From Tubiluchus corallicola (taxonomy: Eukaryota; Animalia; Priapulida): 64,000 nucleotides of DNA. Positions 370-64,000 of the stretch are shown here, one piece after another. Position 1 is the stretch's first letter; every line of letters starts with the position of its first letter. The notes beneath the pieces are model-generated. The model saw only the letters and a list, made by a program, of their open reading frames with translations, was not told where the DNA came from and ran no database searches. The position numbers were made by a program, and so were the translations under genes. The stretch is taken from contig JAQGDQ010002374.1 of assembly GCA_030141605.1 (NCBI GenBank), forward strand, positions 434,001 to 498,000. Direction: 5' to 3'.

Positions 370-3300
370 TTGATACATGTCAAGAAACTGGACAAATTCC
401 TCCAATGACCAGTTCAAAAGAAACCTTAGTTGGATTGACATGAGAGAATCTGCACATCTGAAGAACTCCTCAACTAGCTCTCTGCATCCACCTCTGCGAC
501 GCGGAATCAAATCACTCCACCGATCAGCAAGTTTGCGAAACATTTCTGCACAGTCAGGAATCCACCTGAAATGATGTATAAGAAAGGTTTAGTCACGAAT
601 CGCTTACGACGCTCAGTTATGCTTTGTTTAAATACTTCGGCACAGTGCAAGTTGGGATTCGGCATTCAAAGGCATGGCTTACTCAACGAGATGTTTATAG
701 CATGACTATCACTGAGTTCACTTGCAAGCATATCCTCTCTAAGACGAACTACTCTAAGACTGTACATACAGTAAAACCTCCTTATAACACCCCCTTTATA
801 ATGCCAACCTTGCTTAATGTCCAAATTATTAGCAAAACAAAACATCTGCATTTGCATAGACATGTAGGTATTAATGCACCTTGTTATAATGCTAAACAAC
901 TTATAATGCCAATTTTTTCAGTTCCAAAGTAGAGAGTATAAAGAGATTTAGCTACACCTCCTTCTAAGAGGTATGCAGCTAAGGTAAACCTAACACTGCC
1001 ACATACCACCCAGATGTGCTGCGTATGGTAGAGATGAGCATTGAATTTGAATTAGTTCGAATTCAATTTGAACCTAAAATTATGGATTTGAATAGCACTT
1101 CAACTACATATGTTGTTTACATTTAAAACATTTGAAACAGCACACATTCAGTATAATTTAGCTGTGATTTCTGTGCATGGAAGGAGTTTAAAATTCCCCA
1201 CACAATTTAAATACCCTAACACTGTCCCTAATGCTAAGCCAACCCTAACCCTAACCCTAGCTCTAACCCTGATCCACTTCATGAACTAATTTTTTTTGTG
1301 TGGGGAATTGTAAACCCCTGTGTCCAATTTTTAAACAGATTATTAGTGTTTTTACCGTAGAGTAAAAAACAACTAACATGCATGTTCTTTCTGAGACCAC
1401 TTTTTATTAATGATTTGAAAATTTATTTTAAAATCTTTATTGCTGAATTTGAATTCGGTGCAGACTGGAAATCTCGAAATACTGTTTGATTCGAATTCAA
1501 AAGTCATAAATTTGATTTGATTGAAGTTCGCTTTCTGGTAGAGAATGCTCACCTCCTACTATCTACGACTACGATTACTACGACAAGAATGTACGACTAC
1601 TATCCACTGAGCCATTGAACCCATCACATAAATATCATAGGCTGACAGCTAATGCTTCATAAAACATTTTCTTAAAAAGACAACGGACAATATTTGTTCT
1701 TGGGTGAGACTTTGATTTATCAGTATTCTAACTTTTTCTCATATGTCATCCCAATGTTAATGTAAAAGTAAAAATAAGTGTTTATTGAGATGAAAAAACA
1801 TGTGGATGGACTACACCTGATGACTGCACACAAAACTAACTCACAGAAAAGAATAAGAGATGTTCAACGGATAAATTACATTATGTTTGTAATTGTCAGC
1901 ATGTTTATAAACAACTGCAGTTTACTTTACCAATTATTACTGATAGTGAGTAATGAGTTGCAGAAAGGAGATGAAAAATTGTGGACCAGTCGGGATTTGA
2001 ACCAGAGACCTGGGATTAGTACTCGCGTGGTCTGCCAGGTGCGCTAAGGATGTCATCCATGTGACGCACCTGGCGCAATTGAGCAGCTGTTGACTTTTTT
2101 TTGAATGCTGTACCAGAACAATACGAATTTTCTTAACAAGACATTTTTACGAAAAGCTACAACAACACACAGCAGACAACATGGACTAGTAAAAAAGTAA
2201 CAAAAAATATATATAAAAATATAAGAATACAATGATAGTTCACAAATTACAAAAAGTTGAACTCAAATCAAAATGTATTTAACTCTTGTTGTTGATTAAT
2301 TGCATTATTAACCCAAAGTGTTTTTATCATTACATAACAATTTTGACTTGTTTTTCACATAAAATCAAAGTGCTATTTATAGTTTATACAAGATTGACTC
2401 TATTTGTTGCCCACTGATTTATAGTACATGTATATTCTTTATTTTGGACAACAATACTAAATTAAATTAGTAATTAGTAATGTTGCTTGTAGGAGTTATG
2501 CTCCCAAATTAGACTTGAAAGTCATCAGAAAATTGCATTAACCAGCAAAATGTCTAAGTCTGATAAAATAAACCAGTGAATCTCACACAGTTATTTGTAA
2601 ATTTATTCAAGGAAAATACGGTTAAAGTATACATGTCAATCTAAGAACATAACTAATTGACAAATATAATTTTTCAATGAGTTTACAAAAAGTATTCCCT
2701 AGTGTTCCGAGTCGAACACGGTAATCAGGCTGTCGATGTTAGTCTTGATGATTCTGGAGATCTAGTTTGCCTTCTACAATGGTGTTGTAACCCACTAGGT
2801 GTGATTTTATGGAAAATATCTTCATCTGACAGCTCAAAAACTTTTTCAGCCCTCAATTCTGAATGCTTAGCCTCTCTCAAGTTGTTAACATCCTCCTTAT
2901 CCCATTCAAATATACAAGTTGCAAACTTGCTCATAGACAGCTTGTATAAAAGGTGGCTTTCTGTACTACATGCCAAAGCAATGCGACACATTAAGTGGCA
3001 AATGTGGAGTCTAATTTCAAGATCTTTCCATTCAGCAAAATGTTTCTTGAATGACGAAGGCCTGCTACAAGCCAAAAGCAGTCCCGATTAACGTATAGCA
3101 AGCATGGTGGCAATGCTTGCGCAACTTCACAACGCTTGACCAAGCCACAACGCTTGACACACTGTTTCTAGTATGAGCCTTTTTCCACCTGTCAGGACTG
3201 ACATCAAGATCTCACCATGCTCATTGCCAACATTAGTCGACCTCACTGACGTACCTGCAGCCGCACCAGCTAGCTTGTGAGTAACCTGCAAAGAATCACA

Positions 3301-6300
3301 GTCATGAAGTCTATAATCAATAGCAAGGTATACATAAATTGTACACCATTTAAAGCAGCAATGTGCATTTGGCAGCAGTAGTTAAGCAATACTCAGGTTT
3401 GACAGTATATGGATGGGCGACTATTGAGTTAAATACTAGCTCTGAGCAGCTTTATTCACTTTACTCATTCTGGTTGTTAGCCTTATTCAGAGATGCTGTC
3501 TCTGTAGCTAAACATAGTCAATACACCTCATTTTAGGGCATTAACCTTAATAAGTTCCACCATAAGCCTCCAAGTCCCACCAGAACAATTCACAGTAAGT
3601 TGTCACTTGAAACTGTGAGTAGCAAATGTCACTTAAAAATGTTCGCAGGCTAAAGAATTTGTTGTGAGATCAATTTTGTCATCTCCAAAAAAATTCGAAT
3701 GCCCCATTTTCTTTATGTTGTTGACAAAATTTTAACCTAGTCAGTGCTTGCTATGATGAATGGTAGATTTAAATGATTTCACATCAGTGCTACCGTAAAG
3801 CTGCAAAATTAATTGTGGCCATCGTTCCTACAAATGGATTATAAAACAACTTAGTTTACCTGGCAGCAAAGACACTCTGTGCCAATGTCCAATAGACGTG
3901 GATGTCCAACACTTGCCAACTTAGTTTGGATGAGGTAGGTAGAACCAAAGGCTATTCTGCTGCTTCTTTAAAACAGCTTCACAAGTCTTTCAAAGGTTAC
4001 CTTCAAACAGAGCCTTGGGCAGCCACTAGTGGTTATATTCTGGTAAATAATTGGCCCAAGCTTCTGGCAATATCAGCTCTGTTGCCTTTGCATCACTGGA
4101 TCATGAAAATAACCGATTTTAATGGATGGAAATTAAAGCACCTAATAAAACTTATTTCATTTGCTACCTTGCAAAAAGCAAAAGTCTATAGAGAGCAGGG
4201 ATAAAAAAGCCAAAGTTTATACATGCAGTAACATGTTCCACCTATTATTAATTTACATAATTTGATGAGTTTGGCAGTATGCTACTAGTTAATCATGTAA
4301 TTTGCTTATAATGCTGGTGTTATTACTAATACACAACAAAAGTTTATTACATCAGTTATGCTACAAAAAGCAAATTTTGGAGGATGTAGTGTTGTGATTT
4401 TTTGCTAACTAGCTGTGTTTCTGAATAACCTTGGAAATTTAACTCAAACGACAGAAATCAGATTCTTAGAATTCATACTCTCAGAAACATAAAATTTAAC
4501 AGTTAACACACTTGACTGAAGAAACAGCGGTTTCCGGAATAGGTAAACTCCTTGTTGCTGGTATCTTAGCAATTTAGATAACATAGCAACTTACCAATTA
4601 GAAGTTGGGTTACTCTATTTTTGGTTACGTTATTTGCTAGTTGAGTTAGCAACATAGCAATTAGCTGCCAAAATTTATGCAGGTCTTTAAACTAAACAGA
4701 CAATAGTAATAATAATAAATTTTATATTTACCAATTTGAGCTTCTACTTCTTCTAAGGTCAAGAAAAAGTTTCATTTGCAGGCTGCAGTGAAGCACCAAT
4801 AGCAGAAAACGGCCTGCATACCACAGGCTCAAATGCAACACCCTTGGTTATTGTAGCCTCATGATGTGTGACTGCCTATATAAAGATGTATTTTTCAGTG
4901 CTAAGTTACAAGAAGCTGAGGAAAAATTCCAGCACTTATAAAAACAGCACTAGCTAAGGATGAGGTCAATACTAGTCACTCACTTCTTTCTTCTTCTCCC
5001 CATCTACCTATACTTTTTGCTACTTCATCCATCACAAGTGGAAAGTGTCTGAGGAATTCCTCCAAGCAATTTTTGTTTGCTGTAAGTTCATCAGGTTCCT
5101 TGGGCCTACGTGATTTCATTTCGACCTAAGAGAAATAGACTGGTCATTCCTGATATTCCAAAAAATCTCTCTATTAACAACTAAAATAAATAAAAAGCCA
5201 TCTCACTTTGAAAAAGTTAAGAAACACACCAGTTTAATGAAATAGTAGTAATGAAAACAAAAAATACTAAATCCCAAATTTTATTAATTTTTGAACTGCA
5301 AAACTTACCTGCACACAATCAATCATTCTGCATTGACATAATTGCAATTACAAAATCAATACAGTGTAGAATAGCTAATTTAAAATAAAAACCTATATTC
5401 ACATTACCTAGTATACCTATCAATTGTGAGCTAGCTCACCACGTACACAGCATAAAGTGCATCATTCTGCAGAAGCCATAAGAATGTGTGGCCTTCATAT
5501 TTGCCAAAATGAATTCTCATGCAGCTCAACACCCACTCTCTGTTGGCAGGATCACCACCTTCCTTTAGAATTTGCTTTTTAGCAAGAACTTCTGCCACAT
5601 GTCAGAGTCTGGTGTTGATGTTGTGAGTGGCTGTTGCCTGCACTTCTTTTCATGGGATCGTGCAACACTAGTAGCATGGAAGTTTAGTCAAGGTTGTAGA
5701 GGTAGTTTGCGACTCTAAAAACACCACAAAGTACTACCTTTTTAAAAGCAGGTCGCATGTTTTAGATATAACAGTTTGCAATTGTTTACACATTTTTTTA
5801 AATCAACGATTTTTAATTCTGATGTTGCATATGGATTCGATTAAATAAATCACTACGAAAGCGCTTAAATAAATTTTTAAGGCGGCGGGAAACTACAAAA
5901 ATCCACTGAAGATTAGTGAGGATGCATAAGACACACGGAAAATCAATTCTAAAGGAGTTGTCCATGTTTTGACAGCTCCTAAGCATATTGATACTGATAC
6001 AAATGGTGACATTAATGTTGGTGTTAGAAAAAATAGTATTAGTGGTTTTTGGGCGATGGACATTTTGTCAGATTCCTTCATTCACAAATATATAGCATAG
6101 AATCATGCTGGGAACCAGTTAAGAATGCCTAGTACTAACAGAAATGTAGGACAAAATGATAACAACAGTAATAGTGGGTTAACCGTTCTTGCAATAATTA
6201 ACAAATTATTGCATGAGCTCTTTTGAAGGTTAGTTATGTTAATTGTATTTGATGCCGATAGGTGTCAGCACTTGGTTGGGGCTGATTTTGGTCTTAATAA

Positions 6301-9300
6301 AGTGTCTTTTTATGTTGTCATTTTTAACTTTTTGTATGCTGTGTTATCAGTTTTCATGGCAGCAGAGAGTAGTTCAGCTGACAACATAAGTGCTGCCAAA
6401 AATAACTGATAAATTTTTAAGAAGGCAGGAAACTACAAAAATCTGACGAAGTTTAGTAAGGACGCATATGACACACACAAAAAAATAAATTGGAAATATG
6501 GCGGTTAGTAACTGAACTTGAGGCGAAGAAACAAGCATTAAGTGGTGACATTAACCTTAACTGGCAAGGCCAGAGAAGCGGCTTTAAGCATCAGAGTTGA
6601 AAATTTAAATAAGGTGGATGGTATGACGACACTTCTTAGTACATTGGATGGAGTGTTTTTAAAAGAGAGCAAGGATAGTACTTATGACGCATATAAAAAC
6701 TTTGATGGTATGATGCACTCATACAAAACAGTGAACTTATCGGCAAAAATTGGAAATACGAGCTGTAGGATTGCAGCCGAAGTAGTAAAAGCTGACATTC
6801 CTCTGTTACTTAGCAAATCTTCTTTAAAGAAAGCTGGAACTGTACTAGATTTAGCAGTGATGTTTCAAGAACCAATACATATGTGGTGACATATGATATA
6901 AGTAAACAAGAAAAAACTAAAGTTAAAGCAACTGAAGATCCACGTTAATGCACGTTAAAATCCACACCTGATGGAATAGTGCCAAAAGCTAGAATAGTAG
7001 TGAGAGGATTTAAAGAGTTTAATGTAGACATACAAAGAGACTCTTCTACTTGTGCTTATGAATCACTGAGAGTAATAATTGCAATTTTTGCACTCTGTAG
7101 ATGGAAGATGAACTCAATGGATATCAAAACTGCTTTTCAGTGGATATCAAAACTGCTTTCTACAATGAGAAATGATTGATAGGGATGTCTACATAAAACC
7201 TCCAAAAGAAGCTAGCCGTGAATGAACTTTACGACAACTCAATAAATGTGTTTATGGTATCACAAATTCATCATTACAATGGTATCGCAGAGTCCAAGCT
7301 GTTATGAACAAGTATAATGGAGTTATGTCAAAGATGAATCCTACAGTATTTAATTGGACTAATAATGCTGAAACGGTGACTGGCATAGTAGCTTGTGCTT
7401 TATTTGCGGTGGAACCACAAATTTTGAATCCATGATCATTAGTAAGATCCATGCAGCATTCAAAGTAGGCAAAGAGGATAGTGATGCCTTTAAGTACTGT
7501 GGCATTAGTCTTTCATCTGATGGCAGTAGTAACATATACCTTAATCAAGACAGTTAAACTGACAGCTTACAGAAAAGGATTACTAGCTGATTGCTTAACT
7601 AAGCATGGTGCCTCCACAGAAAAGGATTACTAGCTGATTGCTTAACTAAGCATGGTGCCTCCACTGTTGCATTACGCAAAGCACTTCAGGATGGAACTGT
7701 ACCTTTAAGTGTTATAACTTGAAGTATTGTACCTTAAAGCCAATTGTATTAAGTACAAAATGTTTTTTAAAGAAACCAAAGCAACAATTTTTTGTGAAGT
7801 CGTAACATTAACATTTATTTATTATTTTCACTAAACATTCGTGTTATTATTTACTTGAAATTTTAACTAACTTTCATTGTGCTGTTATTATGATTACACT
7901 TTTCATTACATGATACATACCAGACTTTTGTAGTCATTAACATTTTAAATAATATGAACACCCTTAAAAAATGCTTGGGAATTTGTTAACTGTATTTGAT
8001 GCTGATAGGTGTCAGGGTTGGGGGTGTAATTTGCCATGATTTTGGTCTTAATATAGTGTCTTTTTATGTTGTCATTTTTAACTTCTTGTATGCTGTGTTA
8101 TCAGTTTTCAGTTAGACTAGTTAAATGGAATGTCAGTTAGTTGAAATGCTTAAATTAAGACTTGAATTTTAAATAGAGTAGTAATCTTACTCTGTATAGT
8201 AGTATAACTACTAGCGTCTTCTTCTGGTCACATGTTCACTGGCTTACCGTAATGCTAAGCAGAAACCCGAGTGCATACTGTACAAAACTCTGATATACTT
8301 TTTGACACAAAAAAATTCAAAGTAATTTCGAAGTTTGTCAAAATTACGACTGTTTTCACACACTATAAAAATGCTCCTATTATGTCAGAAAGACACGAGG
8401 AAGGAAAGAGGTACCTATAGCAACAGCGTAAATAAAGTGCAGTTTGTGTCGCCACACTTCACTGGCTAGCGGAGTGCTCAATTTCAGATAATACTACTTA
8501 GTGATTGGTAAACTAGCGCTCAATTTCAGGTGCTTAAATTCATAAGCTGTTTAGTGATCGGTCAATGAGTGCTCAATTGCTCAAATGTTGACAGTCTTAC
8601 AGCTTGGCACCAATGCTACCAGTCAATATGACTGATTCAGCCTGAGATTTCCCCCTTGTAGCTCACAATCCAACAGCACCAGCTGTACTCATGACAGTAG
8701 GGGGATATTTATGGCATCAACAGTATTCTCAAATTAAGCTAAACTTTGAGATAGAAAGCTCATATTCTGCATTATTCCACACACAAAAAACTTTTGTACA
8801 TATCCTAAATAATATTTGTTATTTAAATATCTGTGATTATCGTAAATAACAGCTCATACTCCGTTAGAAGCCTTGTTCGAGTTTCATTGCAATAGGATTC
8901 GATTAGCTTCTGAAAATTGCTTGGTTGGAGTGGTAATTCTGACTCCTCTAGTTGTTTGCAACTAACGAACCTCAATTTTATATACCTACAATTGCAAAAC
9001 CTATTGTTTACTTTATTTTAAATGCAAATGCATTTAAATCACAATAACTTGTATTGTAATCATTATGCAAAATCAGTTTATGGCATTTTTCTGGTAAGAT
9101 GACACTATCACACTTTCTCTATGAAATAGTAACATTATTAAACATCCGTCATTTGCAGTCTTTAAGTTTAGAAGAAATAAGATTGCCATATGGACAAACA
9201 GTACATCATGGTTATTTTATTGACAGCTTGCAAAAAACTTGATTGACAATAAACCAATATAAAACAACATTGCTGGCATCAGCAAAAACTTGTAAAGCCT

Positions 9301-16143: not shown

Positions 16144-16358
16144 TGTGACGTGTTCTTATCTATGGTTTATATTTTAATGTTTGTGCTCACTAAGGTTTCC
16201 CCTCACTGTTTTCAGCGGGCAAGCCACTAGGCGTTACATTCTCTAGACTTATCATGGCAGCAGTCTTTGTGAATAAACAGATTAATAAGCAAGAAACATT
16301 TATGTTAAATGTTCTATAAAGTTTCTAACAAAGTTACAAATGTTGCCAAGACGTTACA
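16144..16358 (+). repeat. 5' LTR of the Gypsy element
   Basis: Direct repeat of 20641-20851 with a few substitutions and a small indel. Confidence 0.95.
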
Positions 16359-16468
16359 TGGTAGTACGGATGGAAGTTATCAGCGAGTGCTTAACTACGG
16401 ATACGCTGATAACATCACTTCTTTGAGTAACGCCAAAATTTCTCTCGGGAAGACTGTGGTAGGATAAA

Positions 16469-17539
16469 ATGGCTGATGGCGAAGGTCATATTCAAGTTAC
16501 TTCCCCGTATAGTGTTCTACCTGCACCACCTAGACTAGACCTGCATGGAAATTTAGCTGTGAAATGGCGAAAATTTCGTCGCATGTGGGACAATTATGAG
16601 GTGGCTTTGAAGCTCAATGAAGCAAATTATGCTGTTAGAACAGCCACATTATTGACCGTTTTGGGTCCTGAGTGTGTGGAAATTTTTGATGGACTAGAAT
16701 TTGAAAATGAGGCAGATAAAACAAATGTTGCAATGGTTCTACAAAAATTTGAAGCATTTTGTGTTGGAGAAACTAATGAAACTTACAAAAGATATTGTTT
16801 TAATAAACGCGATCAAAATCCTCGTGAAACAATCGACGCCTATGTCTCATCTTTGCGCACACTAGCCAAAAGGTGTAATTACGGCAATCTAACTGATAGT
16901 CTGATACGGGATCGGATAGTTCTAGGCATAACTGACAATATTACTCGTAAGCGACTACTGCAAGAGTCAAAACTAACATTGAGTAGCTGCATAACTATTT
17001 GTCGCTCGTTTGCTGAGTCTGCAAGTCAACTTAAAAATATAAAGGCTGAACAAGCTTCCTACTCTGAACAAGTGCAAGCTGTCAAACCCAAAACTAATAA
17101 AGGTAGTGCTAGTAAAGCCACGGGTACTAAGAAAAAGGTGATTGACTGTCACTTCTGTGGGCGTAAGCATGAATGGGACAAAAATAAATGTCCTGCTTAT
17201 GGCAAAACATGTAACATTTGCCATGGAAAAAATCATTTTCAGTCTATGTGCAAATCTAGAGGTAGAACTGACACTCGTGCAAAATCATTTCCGTCGAGAA
17301 GAAGCCAAATTGTCTTTGACATGGCAAACTGTGAGGAACAGTCGAATGAGCATGCGATTGGAACTGTAACTCATACTGTTCATGATGCTGAACAGTGTAC
17401 CACGCAACAGCCTCAGATTTACAGTGAATGGCTTATGGCGGGTACACCTACGATTTTTCAGATCGATTGTGGGGCCAGTATAAACATTATACCTGAAAGA
17501 CTTGTGCCGCATCACTTGTGTGATAAACTTCTACTGTAA
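16469..17539 (+). CDS. Gag with two CCHC knuckles, plus the N-terminal half of the aspartic protease
   Basis: LIRDRIVLGI, CHFCGRKHEWDKNKC, CNICHGKNHFQSMC and FQIDCGASINII. Confidence 0.92.
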   Translation: MADGEGHIQVTSPYSVLPAPPRLDLHGNLAVKWRKFRRMWDNYEVALKLNEANYAVRTATLLTVLGPECVEIFDGLEFENEADKTNVAMVLQKFEAFCVGETNETYKRYCFNKRDQNPRETIDAYVSSLRTLAKRCNYGNLTDSLIRDRIVLGITDNITRKRLLQESKLTLSSCITICRSFAESASQLKNIKAEQASYSEQVQAVKPKTNKGSASKATGTKKKVIDCHFCGRKHEWDKNKCPAYGKTCNICHGKNHFQSMCKSRGRTDTRAKSFPSRRSQIVFDMANCEEQSNEHAIGTVTHTVHDAEQCTTQQPQIYSEWLMAGTPTIFQIDCGASINIIPERLVPHHLCDKLLL

Positions 17540-17544
17540 AGACT

Positions 17545-20526
17545 GTGTTAGAAATGTGGAACATAACTAAAATAAGTCCCATTGGGCAAGTCAGATTGCC
17601 AATTGTAAATCCAGTGAATAAGAAAAGTTACTCTGTGAACTTTTTGGTCGTAAACGAAAATTATGTACCATTGTTAGGTTCTCGTGCTTCACAACAAATG
17701 AAGCTTATTACTGTAAATGAAAATAACTTCAAAAGGGTTGAATCAGCCAATGTTGCTAATATGTTGTGTAGTGATAGCAGTACTAGGCCTACAGCACATG
17801 TTTCAGATGTTTGTAGTGTTGCTGATTGTAATGCTTTACTAACTGAATTTTCTGATATTTTCAGTGAGGTACCAGGAGAATTCCCTGGATGTGTAAGTTT
17901 GAAAATTGATCCTACTGTACCGCCAGTTGTACAACCATGTAGGCGATTTCCTTATAACATGCGAGATAAATTTAAAGCTGAACTTGACAGACTCGAACAA
18001 AACAACATCACTGAACGTGCAGACCACCCTACTGACTGGGTTAACGCTTACACAACTGCTACTAAACGTTCGGGGAGTATCAGAATCTGCTTGGATCCTA
18101 AACCACTGAATAATGCTATCAGACGAGAAATCTACCATATTCCTACAATGGAGGAGCTTACTCCTAGACTGTGCAATGCGAAGCTCTTTTCTACTTTCAA
18201 AGTGACAAGTGGGTTTCATCACATGAAGCTAGAAGAAAAGACCAAAGATCTAACAACATTTGATACTCCGTTCGGTAGATATCGTTATACTAGAGCTCCG
18301 TTTGGGATTTCAGCTTGGCCTGAGATTTTTCAGAAGAAAATGGATGAGCAAATACAAGGCTTAAAAGGAAAAGAAGACTTCCATGATGACGTACTAATTT
18401 ATGGTTGTGGTGCTACCATTACAGAAGCCGGTGTTGACCATAACAACAAACTGAGAGCATTCTTTGAACGATGTCGTGAAAGAAATATAAAACTGAATCC
18501 AGATAAAAGTCAGATTCAACGTAGTGAAGTGCGATACCACGGGCATATTCTGAGTGCTAATGGTATTAAAGCTGACCCCGACAAGGTCGCAGCGGTGCAA
18601 AATATGCCGGCTCCAATCGATAAGACGGGAGTAAGAAGACTGTGTGGTTTTGTCAATTACTTGGCAAAGTTTTTGCCTATGCTTTCTGAAGTCTTTAAAC
18701 CTATTAGTAACGTAATGTCTGACAAAACAGAATTCAGATGGAACTTTGAACAACAAGAGGTATTTGCACAGGTTAAAAAGCTCATAACTACGTCTCCCGT
18801 GCTCAGATATTACAACCCAGATGAAAAACTTACTCTGCAATGTGACAGCAGTCAGTCAGGCTTAGGTGCATGTCTAATGCAGAATGGTCAACCAATTGCA
18901 TTCGCCTCTCGAACTTTGACTGCAACCGAACAGAACTATGCGCAACTTGAAAAGGAAATGCTGAGTCTAATTTTTGGTATTCAAAAGTTTGACCACTGCT
19001 GCTACGCTCGTAAAGTAAAACTGGAAACTGATCACAAGCCTCTAGAATCCATACTCAAGAAGAGCATACTTAGTGCTCCTAAGAGAATACAGTGCATGAT
19101 GTTGGTGCTGCAAAACTATGATGTTGAAGTAGTATATAGGAAAGGAGCAACCATGCTGATGGCTGACACCTTGTCTCGTGCTTCTCTCCCCGAGACTGAT
19201 GACATTGCTTTAGAATTTGAAACTGTACGTGCTTTGGAATACGTACCTGCTACTTTTAAAGATGAGAAACTTGAATTGCTCAAAGTGGCTACAGTGAAAG
19301 CTTTGCAATCTATGATTAGGTCTGGCTGGCCTTGCAAAGTGTCTGAGGTGCAACCGGATCTACGGCAATACTTTAATAATAGAGACGAACTGGCAATAAA
19401 CGAAGGTTTGATATTTAAAGGTGAGAGAATTGTATACCCATCGAGCGAAAGGCTGTCTTTCATTAGACTGGTTCATGCTTGCCACATGGGAATACAAGGC
19501 TGCTTGCGAAGAGCAGGTGAAGTTGTATTCTGGCCCCGGATGAACGCTGATTTTGAATCTTACATTCAAAAGTGTGAAATCTGTAATGCATATCCACGGT
19601 CACAGCAAAAGGAGGAATTGATTCCACAAATTGCAACTCGACCATGGCAGATTGTAGGAAGTGATCTGTGTGAGGTAAATAATACTGATTATCTCATAAC
19701 TGCTGACTATTATTCCAACTTCTTTGAAATAGACAAGCTTGAATCAAAAGAACCTAGAACAGTCATAACAAAGTTGAAAGCACATTTTTCTCGGCATGGA
19801 ATACCAGAAATGCTCCGTTCTGATAATGTGCCATTTGATTCTCAAGAGTTTAAAACTTTTGCTAAAATTTATGGCTTCCAGCATGAAAGTTCTTCACCGA
19901 GGTATCCAAAATCGAATGGCAAAGTTGAGAATGCTGTCAACACTGCTAAGCGTTTGATGAAGAAAGCGCTAGTTGCAAAAGAAGACCCATACTTGTCTCT
20001 ATTGGCTTATAGAAATACACCAGCGGAAGTTCTTAATGCATCACCAGCTCAACGATTGTTTGGAAGACGGACACGGACTACACTACCAATGCCATCTTCC
20101 TTGCTAGAGCCGAAATTTGTGCCAAATACTAGAGAGAAAATCATTGCTCAGAAGGATCGCCAAGCTACATATTACAACCAATAGGCGAAACCTTTGATTC
20201 AATTAATGGTTGGGGATGTTGTACGTATGGACCCTCTACAAAAAGGGAAGATGTGGGAGAAAGCTATAGTGATACGGAAGATTGGTGAAAGGTCTTACCT
20301 TGTAACCTTAATGTTGGTGTACAGAAGAAACAGAGTTCATCTGTGCAAGACGTCTGAGACTTATATAAATGAATCTGTATACTGCCCATACGACAACATG
20401 AGACAGAAACAAGACGTGATACCAGACACACTTAATGATAACAGACAGAGGAATGATAACGAGATTAGAACACGTTCTGGTAGGCGCATTCAGAGACCTA
20501 AGTTTCTTAATGATTATGTTACCTAG
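17545..20526 (+). pseudogene. Pol (protease C-half, RT, RNase H, integrase) with disabling lesions
   Basis: RT IRICLDPKPLN..APFGIS..FHDD; RNase H CDSSQSGLGA..YAQLEKE..TDHKPL; integrase HHCC and DDE (SDL, SDN, NGKVENA). Frameshift relative to gag at ~17524-17537; in-frame TAG at 20182-20184; first RT catalytic Asp replaced (STFKVTSGF). Confidence 0.9.
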
Positions 20527-20640
20527 TTTGAGTATTGATAACCTTGATGTTGACCTTTAATTTTGTGACCTTGATATCTGCTTAGATTGATGTTTTTCAG
20601 TTTAGTTGGTCTATGTTACTTACTTTTAAAAGGAAGAGGA

Positions 20641-20851
20641 TGTGACATGTTCTTATCTATGGTTTTTTTATGTTTGTGCTCACTAAGGTTTCCCCTCACT
20701 GTTTTCAGCGGGCAAGCCACGAACCGTTACATTCTCTAGACTTATCATGGCAGCAGTCTTTGTGAATAAACAGATTAATAAGCAAGAAACACTTATGTTA
20801 AATGTTCTATAAAGTTTCTAACAAAGTTACAAATGTTGCCAAGACGTTACA
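20641..20851 (+). repeat. 3' LTR of the Gypsy element
   Basis: Follows the PPT; ends in CA immediately before the TSD. Confidence 0.95.
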
Positions 20852-25506: not shown

Positions 25507-55884
<30,378 letters not shown>

Positions 55885-56189
55885 CTAAAATGTACATCAA
55901 AATGTGTGATTAGTATTATCTAGTCCGTTCACGCTGTCTGCTATTGGAGCTAATGAGCTACAGTCTGTGTTTGACTGTTTATTGGATGCTAAGGCTAAGG
56001 TCTCCAACAAGAATGTATAAGTTACTATACAGGAGTTAAGTGAACTAGTAAGATCAGCTACTAAGAGTTCATTTGTAGGCAAGTAAGGACCTAAAAGGCT
56101 GCGTCTCTACACGCAATATTTTTTACAAGTTATGGTACTTCGGAATCCAGCACAAAATGACAGGACCTGCTATGTAGGACGGGTTGTGG

Positions 56190-57171
56190 CAGGAACAGAG
56201 CCTAAATATGATGAAACATTGGACCAGCAGAGGTACAGGAACAAAGAGTAGCTACAATGAAACAACAAACCAGCAGAGCTACAGGAACAAAGCCTAGCTA
56301 TGATGAATCACTTAACCAGCAAAGTGCAGGAACAAAGCCTAGTTATGATGAAACAATGAAGCAGCAGAGGTGCAAGAACAGTGCCTTGCTATGTCAAAAC
56401 ATTGAATCAGCAGAGGTTTTGAAGTTTTGAAGCTTTTATTATTATCACATTCAGTACAATATAATGACGTTAAATACATAGTGACATCAAAATTGTTACT
56501 TCATACTGTATTAAATTATTATGTTTCATACACTATAGTTATAATAAAAGAATTATTGTATTACAGTGGGCTAGAGAAGCAAAAGCTTGTATAAGCCCAC
56601 TGTCATGTGAACCAGATAAAAAAAAGAATGGATGAGTGAACAAAAAAAAAGAACTGGGAGAAAGGTTAGATCACACAGAAAGGGTAGAAGGATGTGTTAG
56701 TGGAAACAGTAGGAAGAAAGATTACATCAGCTCAAAAGATTTATCAATGTCTTGATTTGGATAATCTGTACCAGGATTGTGGTATGACTGCTGCAGCAAC
56801 AGGTACAGGAACAAAGCCTAGTTATGACGAAACAATGAACCAGCAGAGGTGCAGAAACAAAACCTAGCCATGATGAAACACTGAACCAACAGAGGTGTAG
56901 GAAGAGAGCCTAACTATGATGAAATACTGAAACAGCAGAGGTGCAGGAAGAGAGTCTAACTATGATGAAATACTAAACTAGCAGAGGTGCAGAGACAACA
57001 CCTAGCCATGATGAAACACTGAACCAAAAGAGGTGCAGGAAGAGAGCCTAACTATGATGAAATACTAAACCAGCAGAGGTGCAGGAACAACGCCTAGCTA
57101 TGATGAAACAATGAACCAGCAAAGGTGCAGGAACAGAGCTTAGCTATTATGAAACATTGAACCAGCAGAGC
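56190..57171. repeat. 46-bp minisatellite in two blocks (56190-56417 and 56795-57171)
   Basis: Unit CAGCAGAGGTGCAGGAACAAAGCCTAGCTATGATGAAACAATGAAC at period 46 (56841, 56887, 56933, ...). Confidence 0.9.
56530..56790 (-). mobile_element. Probable LINE 3'-end remnant splitting the 46-bp array
   Basis: Minus-strand stem-loop CAGTGGGCTTATACAAGCTTTTGCTTCTCTAGCCCACTG, typical of L2/CR1 3' UTRs, downstream of a decayed ORF2-like end. Confidence 0.4.
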
Positions 57172-57969
57172 TGTCTTTGTCAAGTTCAATTCCTCAACAC
57201 ATAAATAGGCAGACACACGAGTGGTTTTCCAGCAGCTAACCATCAGCTAACCTGGCTAGGCATTGCTTACAACTTTGGTCACTAAGCTATTCCCCTCATT
57301 TAATGCACATTTGCTATTTTGTGCATAAACAAAATTACAGTTTATGTGTTTGCATTTACAGGGTAAATTATTATGGAGCTAAAGCACATATAAAAAGCAG
57401 AAAACAAATGCCTGAACAAATTTCAGTTTGTACATGCAGGAGTTATTTACAACAGCATTTCTCTGTCTGATTTCCAATTCTAAAATTTGGTAACAATGTT
57501 TGGTAACAAAGTTTTTTACAATGTTATAATTGGGAAGTGGTCACAGCATGTCGGTTCCACGGATTGCAAAGTTTGGCTATGTACATATTCCTAATTATGG
57601 CGGAATCAGCTAGAAAAGCTACTGTTTTGAGCTAATCAGTAGTTTCTCATCATTCGGCAGTATTAAAACTATTAAATCGGGTTATGATTAATCTGGATAC
57701 TTTTTCTCTTTTTAATTTATTGAAGGTTCTTTTACATACCTAAACTCAAAAACCATGTCATCAGACAGTGAATGACCAACGTTAGTGATATCAGCTTTCT
57801 ATAAACAAATGAAAACATTCACTATAGAAACTATAATTACCACTTCTAAATCTAGTATCAAATTCTACAAAATTTTGTCTGACTTAATAAACAATTATAG
57901 TTATATCTTTCACGATCTCAGAAAGTTTCAGCTTTTCCTAAAGAAATTAACAGAACAAAGAAAAATGAT

Positions 57970-62970: not shown

Positions 62971-63051
62971 CTGAATTAACAATTAAGTAAACAAACACAT
63001 GAGCATGTGAACGTACATCCTTTCTTGTACAAACCCTTAAACATTTGGTGA

Positions 63052-64000
63052 TATAAGCGGTTACCTTTTACCTATAAGCGGTTACCTTTTACCTGTAAGT
63101 GTCACCTTCTACTTGTAAGCAGTCACCTTCTACCTGTAAGAGGCCATCTTCTAACTATAACAGGTCACTTTTTACCTGCAAGTGATCACTTTCTACCTAT
63201 AAGCAGTAACTTATCTATAATAGGTTACCTTCTACCTATAAGTGGCCACCATATACCTATAAGTGGCTATCTTCTATCTATAAGAGGTCACCTTCTACCT
63301 GTACTTAAGTGGTCACCTACCTGTAAGCGGTTACCTTTTACCTGAAAATGGTCATCTTCTACCTGTAAGCAGTCACCTACCAGTCAGAGGTCACCTTCTA
63401 CTTATGAGTAGTCACATTTTACCTATAAGAGGTCACCTTCTACTTATAAGCAGTCACCTTTTACCTATAAGAGGTCAACCTTTACCTATAAGAGATCACC
63501 TTCTACCTAAAAGAAGTCACCTTCTATCTATAAGTGATCACCTTCTACCTATAAGAGGTTACCTTCTACCTATAAGAGGTTACCTTCTACCTATAACTGG
63601 TCACCTTCTACCTATAAGAGGTCACCTTCTACTTGTAAGTGGTCACCTTCTAGCTTATAAGAGGTCATGTTCTACTTATAAGCGGTCACCTTCTAGGTTA
63701 TAAGAGGTCACGTTCTACTGATAAGATGTCACCTTCTACCTATAAGTGATCACCTTTTACCTATAACAGGTCACCTTCTACCTATAAGTGGTTGCCTACC
63801 TATAAGGGGTTACCTCTACCTATAAGAGGTCACCTTCTGTCTGTAAGTAGTCACCTTCTAGCCTATAAGAGGTCACCATCTACCTATAAGTGGTCACCAT
63901 CTACCTATAAGAGGTCACCTTCTATCTGTAAGTAGTCACCTTCTACCTATAAGAGGTCAACTTCTAGCCTATAAGAGGTCACCATCTACCTATAAGTTGT
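63052..64000. repeat. 21-bp minisatellite (CTTCTACCTATAAGAGGTCAC)n, running off the right edge
   Basis: More than 40 degenerate units, within a GH31 intron. Confidence 0.95.

What the first reader, a model, noticed from the sequence alone, without database searches (positions are those of the whole stretch)
2034..2074. Element end carries a perfect inverted copy of the flanking target DNA (junction hairpin)
Seen: GCCAGGTGCG (2034-2043, target side) is exactly complementary to CGCACCTGGC (2065-2074, inside the element). The spacer holds a second inverted repeat, GGATG-T-CATCC (2048-2058). The flank differs from a canonical A-box (ACCAGCTGAG) at three positions, and all three match the internal copy. 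Inference: either the element end encodes a base-pairing guide or mimic of its target, conceptually like IS200/IS605 guide sequences, or the target was rewritten from the element end during integration or repair. Either would bear on how a eukaryotic DDE transposon could achieve sequence specificity.
Basis: partly seen in the sequence, partly recalled or inferred. Interest (0 to 1): 0.8.

Follow-up and report, generated by a model that had tools for sequence, protein, structure and literature searches.

The report
Dada transposon junction with copy-specific hairpin
The hairpin is real and sits at the end of a broken jumping gene of a known kind (Dada) that landed in a tRNA-like repeat, but the same end sits beside non-matching DNA elsewhere in this genome, so the perfect match is likely an accident of this one copy and not a targeting guide.

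Summary
Both inverted repeats are there as described, and a second study's contig spans the junction, so it is not an assembly error. The element (2047-8612) is a decayed Dada transposon, inserted at the usual Dada site (tRNA positions 8-13) of a tRNA-like segment in a high-copy repeat, with an imperfect 6-bp duplication. End-to-target inverted repeats are already published for Dada-U6/U1. I found them at 3 of 3 U6 junctions tested, centred on the duplication; this hairpin is 10.5 bases off that centre. Public contigs show this end at four sites. One flank cannot be complementary, one is inferred to keep the ordinary A box, and one shares the inner arm but differs at five unread flank bases. 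Only this copy is shown perfect. Of the three changed bases, one is a common family variant and one lies in the duplication; three nearby changes do not pair. In the published symmetric register the end matches an empty target 11 of 18 (1 of 3000 shuffles). Best reading: protein-read shared motifs plus a local coincidence or template switch. The scan noted Dada on other DNA before (77 notes); my searches found none on this hairpin.

The parts
1871..1983 (.). Left arm of the host repeat (terminal-inverted-repeat-bounded, MITE-like)
   Evidence: Matches both arms of the empty copy 54783-55202 at 74-77%
1983..2046 (-). 3' part of a tRNA-like segment of the host repeat (A box to acceptor end); the target
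   Evidence: A- and B-box-like motifs read by eye; high-copy in contigs; not called by ARAGORN or Rfam
2034..2043 (+). Target-side arm of the 10-bp inverted repeat; overlaps the duplication by 3 bases
2041..2046 (-). Target-site duplication, copy at the element's 3' end (TAGCGC on the minus strand; tRNA positions 8-13)
   Evidence: empty sites run straight from 2046 into the right flank (X5 loose end behind 2046)
2047..8612 (-). Decayed Dada transposon, 6566 bp including a nested insert
   Evidence: Bounded by the two halves of the host repeat; transposase remnants
2048..2058 (.). Inner palindrome, wholly inside the element's 3' terminus; shared with a second copy of the end
   Evidence: (X1 record 5, 2045-2078, double depth)
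2065..2074 (+). Element-side arm; its core GCACCTG recurs, inverted, near the other end beside AATTGAGC
2077..2084 (+). Subterminal motif AATTGAGC at the 3' end
   Evidence: 4 of the window's 6 copies lie within 140 bases of the two ends
2740..5583 (-). Transposase remnants in pieces (2740-3288, about 3850-4090, about 5380-5580), with stops, a frameshift and altered catalytic motifs
   Evidence: phmmer 486 hits at E<=0.001, best 3.9e-30; tblastn of hits; 8 of 10 scanned hits carry Pfam DUF6729
6237..8110 (+). Nested insert bounded by direct repeats, likely a decayed LTR retroelement
   Evidence: Direct repeats 6237-6356 and 7984-8110, 85%; reverse-transcriptase-like peptides by eye; no Pfam hit for the one ORF scanned
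8476..8578 (-). Three subterminal AATTGAGC repeats at the 5' end, one preceded by GCACCTG
8613..8618 (-). Target-site duplication, copy at the 5' end (TAGCAT on the minus strand; 4 of 6 identical to the other copy)
8617..8736 (.). Right part of the host repeat, resuming after the insertion
   Evidence: 74% to 54956-55072
54783..55202 (.). Empty, diverged copy of the host repeat, used as the pre-insertion reference

Best explanation
This is the 3' junction of a broken Dada transposon in the A box of a tRNA-like repeat; its transposase likely read short motifs shared by the element's ends and the target as a protein, and the perfect 10-base match is likely a coincidence of this copy. Shown: boundaries, duplication, transposase homology, subterminal repeats at both ends, and the same end beside other flanks. 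Inferred: the inner arm is part of a repeated transposase-binding unit (GCACCTG ... AATTGAGC) that already resembles an A box; this target copy carried a common G at 2034; the C at 2042 came with the target or with the six bases Dada is known to replace; one further substitution (2039) completed the match.
For: The arm core recurs at the other end beside AATTGAGC. X1 contigs give four sites. Record 4 has an unrelated flank whose arm-equivalent differs from ours at 6 of 10 bases, while its element part has only 5 differences in 2043-2100, so it cannot pair fully. Record 3 is inferred to carry A at 2034 and C at 2039: the distance-to-end values 44, 41, 37, 32 all point to a piece ending at 2070, and two of these letters (2027, 2030) are confirmed by its loose end. 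At 2034 only 1482 of 5265 depth units in X1 show A, and the consensus of 17 X5 loose ends shows G (laid contigs are biased towards matching). The second duplication copy also departs from the empty copy at the 2042-equivalent base. A best 10-base match of >=7 arises in 77% of 3000 shuffles, >=8 in 18%, >=9 in 1.5%. The end matches the empty target best in the duplication-symmetric register, 11 of 18, 1 of 3000 shuffles, the geometry published for Dada (PMC3706591) and seen at 3 of 3 U6 junctions.
Against: A perfect 10 of 10 arose in only 1 of 3000 shuffles and any such repeat in 5 of 3000. Perfect repeats are four times over-represented in the window (13 against 3.25), which suggests non-random causes. 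Record 2 shares the inner arm and has 5 differences in 2026-2044 whose letters I could not read; one must be at 2044, and the other four could all lie outside the arm. The letters of record 3 are inferred, not printed. Whether empty copies carry G at 2039 is only hinted (about 450 or more depth units in X1 reach 2039 without C and do not enter the element; their letter is not listed). No binding data were found for Dada in my searches.
Confidence: 0.6

Rival explanations
1. After insertion, a replication template switch copied the inner arm onto the flank and turned a near-perfect repeat into a perfect one, once, at this locus. It is a mutation, not a targeting mechanism.
For: The mechanism needs a pre-existing near-perfect repeat and makes clustered changes (PMC5453318 passages; PMC8604942 abstract). 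The direction fits: the inner arm is identical in a second copy of the end while the flank departs from the family. Perfect repeats are in excess in the window.
Against: Three neighbouring changes (2025, 2027, 2030) do not pair, so the flank is diverged anyway. G at 2034 is common in the family. The other duplication copy also differs at the 2042-equivalent base, which a switch at the left junction would not touch.
Confidence: 0.27
2. Integration itself rewrites the target beyond the six duplicated bases, using the element's end as template. This would extend the known Dada replacement of the duplication.
For: Replacement of the six flanking bases is reported for Dada-tA and Dada-tY (PMC3706591, PMC8869645). 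One changed base (2042) lies in those six.
Against: The published replacements are of six bases. Record 3 is inferred unchanged at 2034 and 2039, and record 4 is not complementary.
Confidence: 0.08
3. The subterminal 10-mer is a DNA guide that base-pairs with the opened target and sets specificity, as in IS200/IS605.
For: Perfect 10-bp complementarity across the junction and a -14.2 kcal/mol hairpin. The end is conserved between copies (2045-2078 identical, 2049-2100 one difference) while the DNA beyond 2100 diverges. Record 2 is untyped.
Against: The same end sits beside a flank that cannot pair (record 4) and beside an inferred ordinary A box (record 3). The arm matches the window's empty target at only 6 of 10. 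The transposase is Dada-type and there is a duplication, whereas IS200/IS605 use an HUH enzyme and make none (PMC13565253 passages). By eye, the two fish Dada-tR-like ends' neighbours differ: the four fish Dada-tR 3' ends shown do not have this arm.
Confidence: 0.04

Closest known systems
Dada superfamily, A-box families (Dada-tR, tN, tK, tY, tS; Kojima 2022, PMC8869645; Kojima and Jurka 2013, PMC3706591)
   Same: Insertion at tRNA positions 8-13, 6-bp duplication that departs from the target, no terminal inverted repeats, transposase in the same orientation as the tRNA. The last 19 bases match the Dada-tR_OJav 3' end at 13 of 19 by eye. The Dada-tY 3' junction also shows a 6-bp end-to-target inverted repeat (Fig. 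S2 text).
   Different: The target is a tRNA-like segment of a high-copy repeat, not a recognised tRNA gene. The transposase is decayed. The 10-bp hairpin is 10.5 bases off the duplication centre and is shown only at this copy. No tree against the published families was built.
Dada-U6 and Dada-U1 subterminal inverted repeats shared with the target (PMC3706591, text and Fig. S2)
   Same: A perfect inverted repeat between the element's subterminal DNA and the target flank: 9 bp in Dada-U6 and 7 bp in Dada-U1 as published, and 8, 11 and 11 bp at three metagenome junctions. The authors speculated on a role in target recognition.
   Different: Those are centred on the duplication and conserved across copies. 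The counterpart here is the weaker 11-of-18 symmetric match, not the reported hairpin.
IS200/IS605 guide-target pairing
   Same: An end-associated hairpin and sequence-specific insertion.
   Different: HUH transposase, single-strand transposition, no duplication (PMC13565253 passages). The short guide-to-target pairing and its use for retargeting are recalled, not read. No covariation seen here.
Template-switch perfection of near-perfect inverted repeats (PMC5453318; PMC8604942)
   Same: Clustered changes in one arm that match the other.
   Different: No ancestral allele of this locus was available, so the event is not shown.

Membership tests
Dada superfamily | Transposase homologous to Dada transposases | tested here: met
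   486 hits at E<=0.001; 140 of 150 listed hits have LDxxH; an alignment of 25 hits retrieved 80 loci, 4 with U6 pieces at the published Dada-U6 site. That DUF6729 equals Dada is recalled; no paper names it.
Dada superfamily | Intact DDE triad and DxxH motif | tested here: not met
   This copy reads YVNRDC and LHICH where relatives have D; stops and a frameshift; no tblastn hit for the C-terminal half. A decayed copy, which does not change family assignment.
Dada superfamily | 6-7 bp target-site duplication | tested here: met
   2041-2046 and 8613-8618, 4 of 6 identical; one copy in empty sites
Dada superfamily | Insertion at a fixed site inside a multicopy small-RNA gene | tested here: inconclusive
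   Site equals tRNA positions 8-13, and records 1 and 3 of four sites lie at the same register in this repeat; but ARAGORN and Rfam do not call the target a tRNA and record 4 has another flank
Dada superfamily | No terminal inverted repeats; short subterminal inverted repeats | tested here: met
   Ends agree at 9 of 30 in register; AATTGAGC once at the 3' end and three times inverted at the 5' end
Dada superfamily | [quoted passage not shown] | tested here: met
   3' end against the empty copy 11 of 18, best of all registers, 1 of 3000 shuffles; against this copy's own flank only 8 of 18
IS200/IS605-type guided element | HUH (Y1) transposase | tested here: not met
   The only transposase remnant found is Dada-type
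IS200/IS605-type guided element | No target-site duplication | tested here: not met
   A 6-bp duplication is present
IS200/IS605-type guided element | Guide covaries with the target | tested here: not met
   Of 3 other sites: 1 cannot pair, 1 inferred ordinary, 1 untyped
IS200/IS605-type guided element | Retargeting by changing the guide | not testable with these tools
   Needs an active element and an assay

The most novel reading that the evidence does not exclude
The 3' subterminal segment of this Dada family folds back onto the opened A box during integration, acting as a DNA guide or template that picks and rewrites about ten target bases. It would be a base-pairing-guided eukaryotic DDE transposon and would explain the unexplained replacement of Dada target duplications; the non-matching sites would then be off-target or one-ended events.
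Probability: 0.05. Interest if true: 0.85.

Novelty: new member of a known kind. Interest (0 to 1): 0.2.

Why it matters
How Dada transposons find their targets, and why they sometimes replace the six flanking bases, is stated as unknown in both papers read. A guide that pairs with the target would make them programmable, which would matter for gene delivery. This locus does not supply that evidence: the match is not shared by the other sites that could be typed, and the copy is dead. What it adds is modest: a Dada-tR-like family with both ends readable to the base, landing at the A box of a tRNA-like segment of a high-copy repeat, and one more case of the symmetric end-to-target resemblance.

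Tried and rejected
No whole genome is held for this window, so copies could be examined only through two contig layouts; their tables are cut and do not print each contig's letters. No RNA holder was listed. The word-indexed protein search found nothing; the full HMMER search did. Pfam gave no informative hit for the two remnant pieces scanned (one sub-threshold DUF1580 hit, ignored). An exact 23-base pattern from the end had 0 matches in metagenome contigs. Among 80 Dada-like loci, blastn found no match to either end, ARAGORN found no tRNA in the 56 scanned, Rfam found only U6 in the 40 scanned, and 4 B-box hits had no A box upstream, so no cross-family covariation test on A-box families was possible. 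Rejected: (1) assembly artefact (X4 spans the junction); (2) record 2 as an allele of this locus (only record 1 is laid at 1860-1878 in X1); (3) the 11-bp repeat at 2075-2085 and 8570-8580 as true terminal inverted repeats (the host repeat resumes only at 2046 and 8613-8617). An oddity that I could not explain: the depth listed for C at 2039 equals sums of junction-contig depths in X1 (493.7) and X2 (58.5); I did not use those sums. Paper searches listed no report of a base-pairing guide in Dada or of Dada homing into a tRNA-like repeat; the library lacks most subscription papers and Repbase entries. The main figures of both Dada papers and the 2013 protein alignment file could not be read and may show more end-to-target matches.

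Full report
Observation. The 10-base arms (2034-2043, 2065-2074) are exact reverse complements and the inner palindrome lies at 2048-2058; their centres differ by one base. The hairpin folds at -14.2 kcal/mol with DNA parameters. A contig of run X4, another sample and study, covers 1988-2184 without substitution, so the junction is real. The window has 13 perfect repeats of this size class against a mean of 3.25 in 12 simulations; local shuffles give one in 5 of 3000.

Anatomy. Bases 1871-2046 and 8617-8736 align with adjacent parts of an uninterrupted repeat at 54783-55202, which has 113-base inverted arms and a tRNA-like core. The insertion is 2047-8612, flanked by 2041-2046 and 8613-8618 (4 of 6 identical). 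On the minus strand these read TAGCGC and TAGCAT, the A-box start at tRNA positions 8-13, where five fish Dada groups and four Perkinsus families insert (PMC8869645). An X5 contig runs from 2046 straight into the right flank, a second empty site. The core is high-copy (87 X1 contigs share one variant at 1987), but ARAGORN and Rfam do not call it a tRNA; the tRNA likeness is read by eye.

Element identity. The frame at 2728-3087 has 486 relatives at E<=0.001; 8 of 10 scanned carry DUF6729. tblastn of these maps further pieces up to 5583, with stops, a frameshift, altered catalytic motifs and no C-terminal half. The last 19 bases match the 3' end of Dada-tR_OJav at 13 positions by eye. AATTGAGC occurs once at the 3' end and three times, inverted, at the 5' end (4 of 6 window copies), and one 5' copy is preceded by GCACCTG, the core of the inner arm. 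The arm is therefore part of the element's own subterminal repeat.

What is known. Kojima and Jurka (PMC3706591; parts 1-3 of 4 and Fig. [quoted passage not shown] They and Kojima 2022 (PMC8869645; parts 1-3 of 5, supplement parts 1 and 107 and passages read) report replacement of the six flanking bases, and the 2022 paper concludes that the transposase recognises primary sequence. At 3 of 3 U6 junctions tested in my loci a perfect 8-11-bp end-to-flank repeat is centred exactly on the duplication; the window's hairpin is 10.5 bases off. In the symmetric register the 3' end matches the empty copy at 11 of 18, the best of all registers and reached by 1 of 3000 shuffles; against its own flank it is 8 of 18. 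In the hairpin register the empty copy matches 6 of 10 over the arm, and a best match of 7 or more arises in 77% of shuffles.

Covariation test. Seven X1 contigs lie on 2026-2135 and define four sites. Record 1 is this locus. Record 2 ends at 2074 like record 1, and both overlap by 30 bases a double-depth piece (2045-2078), so by assembly-graph logic (inferred, word length 31) its inner arm is identical and its 5 differences lie in 2026-2044, one at 2044; the letters are not printed. It is not an allele, as only record 1 is laid at 1860-1878. Record 3 lies in another copy of the host repeat; the distance-to-end values imply A at 2034 and C at 2039, the family bases (the same logic gives the letters at 2027 and 2030, which its loose end confirms), and its element part breaks off after 2070. 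Record 4 has an unrelated flank that differs from ours at 6 of the 10 arm positions, with only 5 differences in 2043-2100, so it cannot pair fully. Thus 1 of 4 sites is shown perfect, 1 is excluded, 1 is inferred ordinary and 1 is untyped.

The three changed bases. G at 2034 is common: A makes up 1482 of 5265 depth units in X1 and 22 of 294 in X4, and the consensus of 17 X5 loose ends has G (laid contigs are biased to match, and in X5 the laid depth is mostly A). C at 2042 lies inside the duplication, and the other copy also departs from the empty copy there; its A on the minus strand could be CpG decay of the same G (inference). G at 2039 is the one base left; some X1 contigs reach 2039 without C and do not enter the element, but their letter is not listed. 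The flank also differs from the family at 2025, 2027 and 2030 without pairing, so it is a diverged copy.

Against this reading. A 10-of-10 match arose in 1 of 3000 shuffles, perfect repeats are in excess in the window, and template switching is a documented way to perfect such repeats (PMC5453318 passages; PMC8604942 abstract). Record 2 could be fully complementary. Four sites from two contig layouts are a small sample, and no A-box junction from another family was recovered.

Verdict. A decayed new member of the Dada superfamily. The end-to-target resemblance is a known Dada property; the perfect hairpin is most likely copy-specific (coincidence 0.6, template switch 0.27, integration-linked rewriting 0.08, guide 0.04). 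IS200/IS605 membership fails on enzyme, duplication and covariation (PMC13565253 passages; the guide mechanism itself is recalled). Earlier notes of this scan list Dada 77 times in at least 16 genomes; searches near this place and by words found none on this hairpin.

Noticed in passing
window 54783-55202 and 1871-2046 with 8617-8736: A roughly 420-bp repeat with 113-base inverted arms carries a tRNA-like core; the core is far more abundant in contigs than the arms. At least two of four Dada sites lie at the same register in it, so this family may use a mobile repeat as its landing pad.
   Followed up: partly
window 6237-8110: Nested insert with direct repeats and reverse-transcriptase-like peptides, likely a decayed Copia-type LTR element (by eye).
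   Followed up: partly
window 16172-20851: LTR retroelement with 187-base repeats 97% alike and long open frames with reverse transcriptase, RNase H and integrase zinc-binding domains.
   Followed up: partly
window 27132-27172, 36185-36225, 56563-56603: Three further perfect 10-bp inverted repeats with the same 21-base spacer as the finding (4 of 13 in the window); no shared sequence seen by eye.
   Followed up: partly
window 5869-5942 and 6409-6482: 74-base direct repeat, 82% alike, on either side of the nested insert's left repeat; unexplained.
   Followed up: no
window 2240-2400: A very high-copy repeat segment inside the Dada element (depth up to 150,000 in X1).
   Followed up: no
L004, L026, L065, L072: Dada-U6 elements in metagenome contigs with U6 junctions; L072 (4886 bases) holds both junctions and looks complete.
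   Followed up: partly
window 33750-34900, 56139-57214, 63031-64000, 48775-51464: Tandem arrays of 24, 46 and 21 bases, and a 2.7-kb element with long inverted arms.
   Followed up: no
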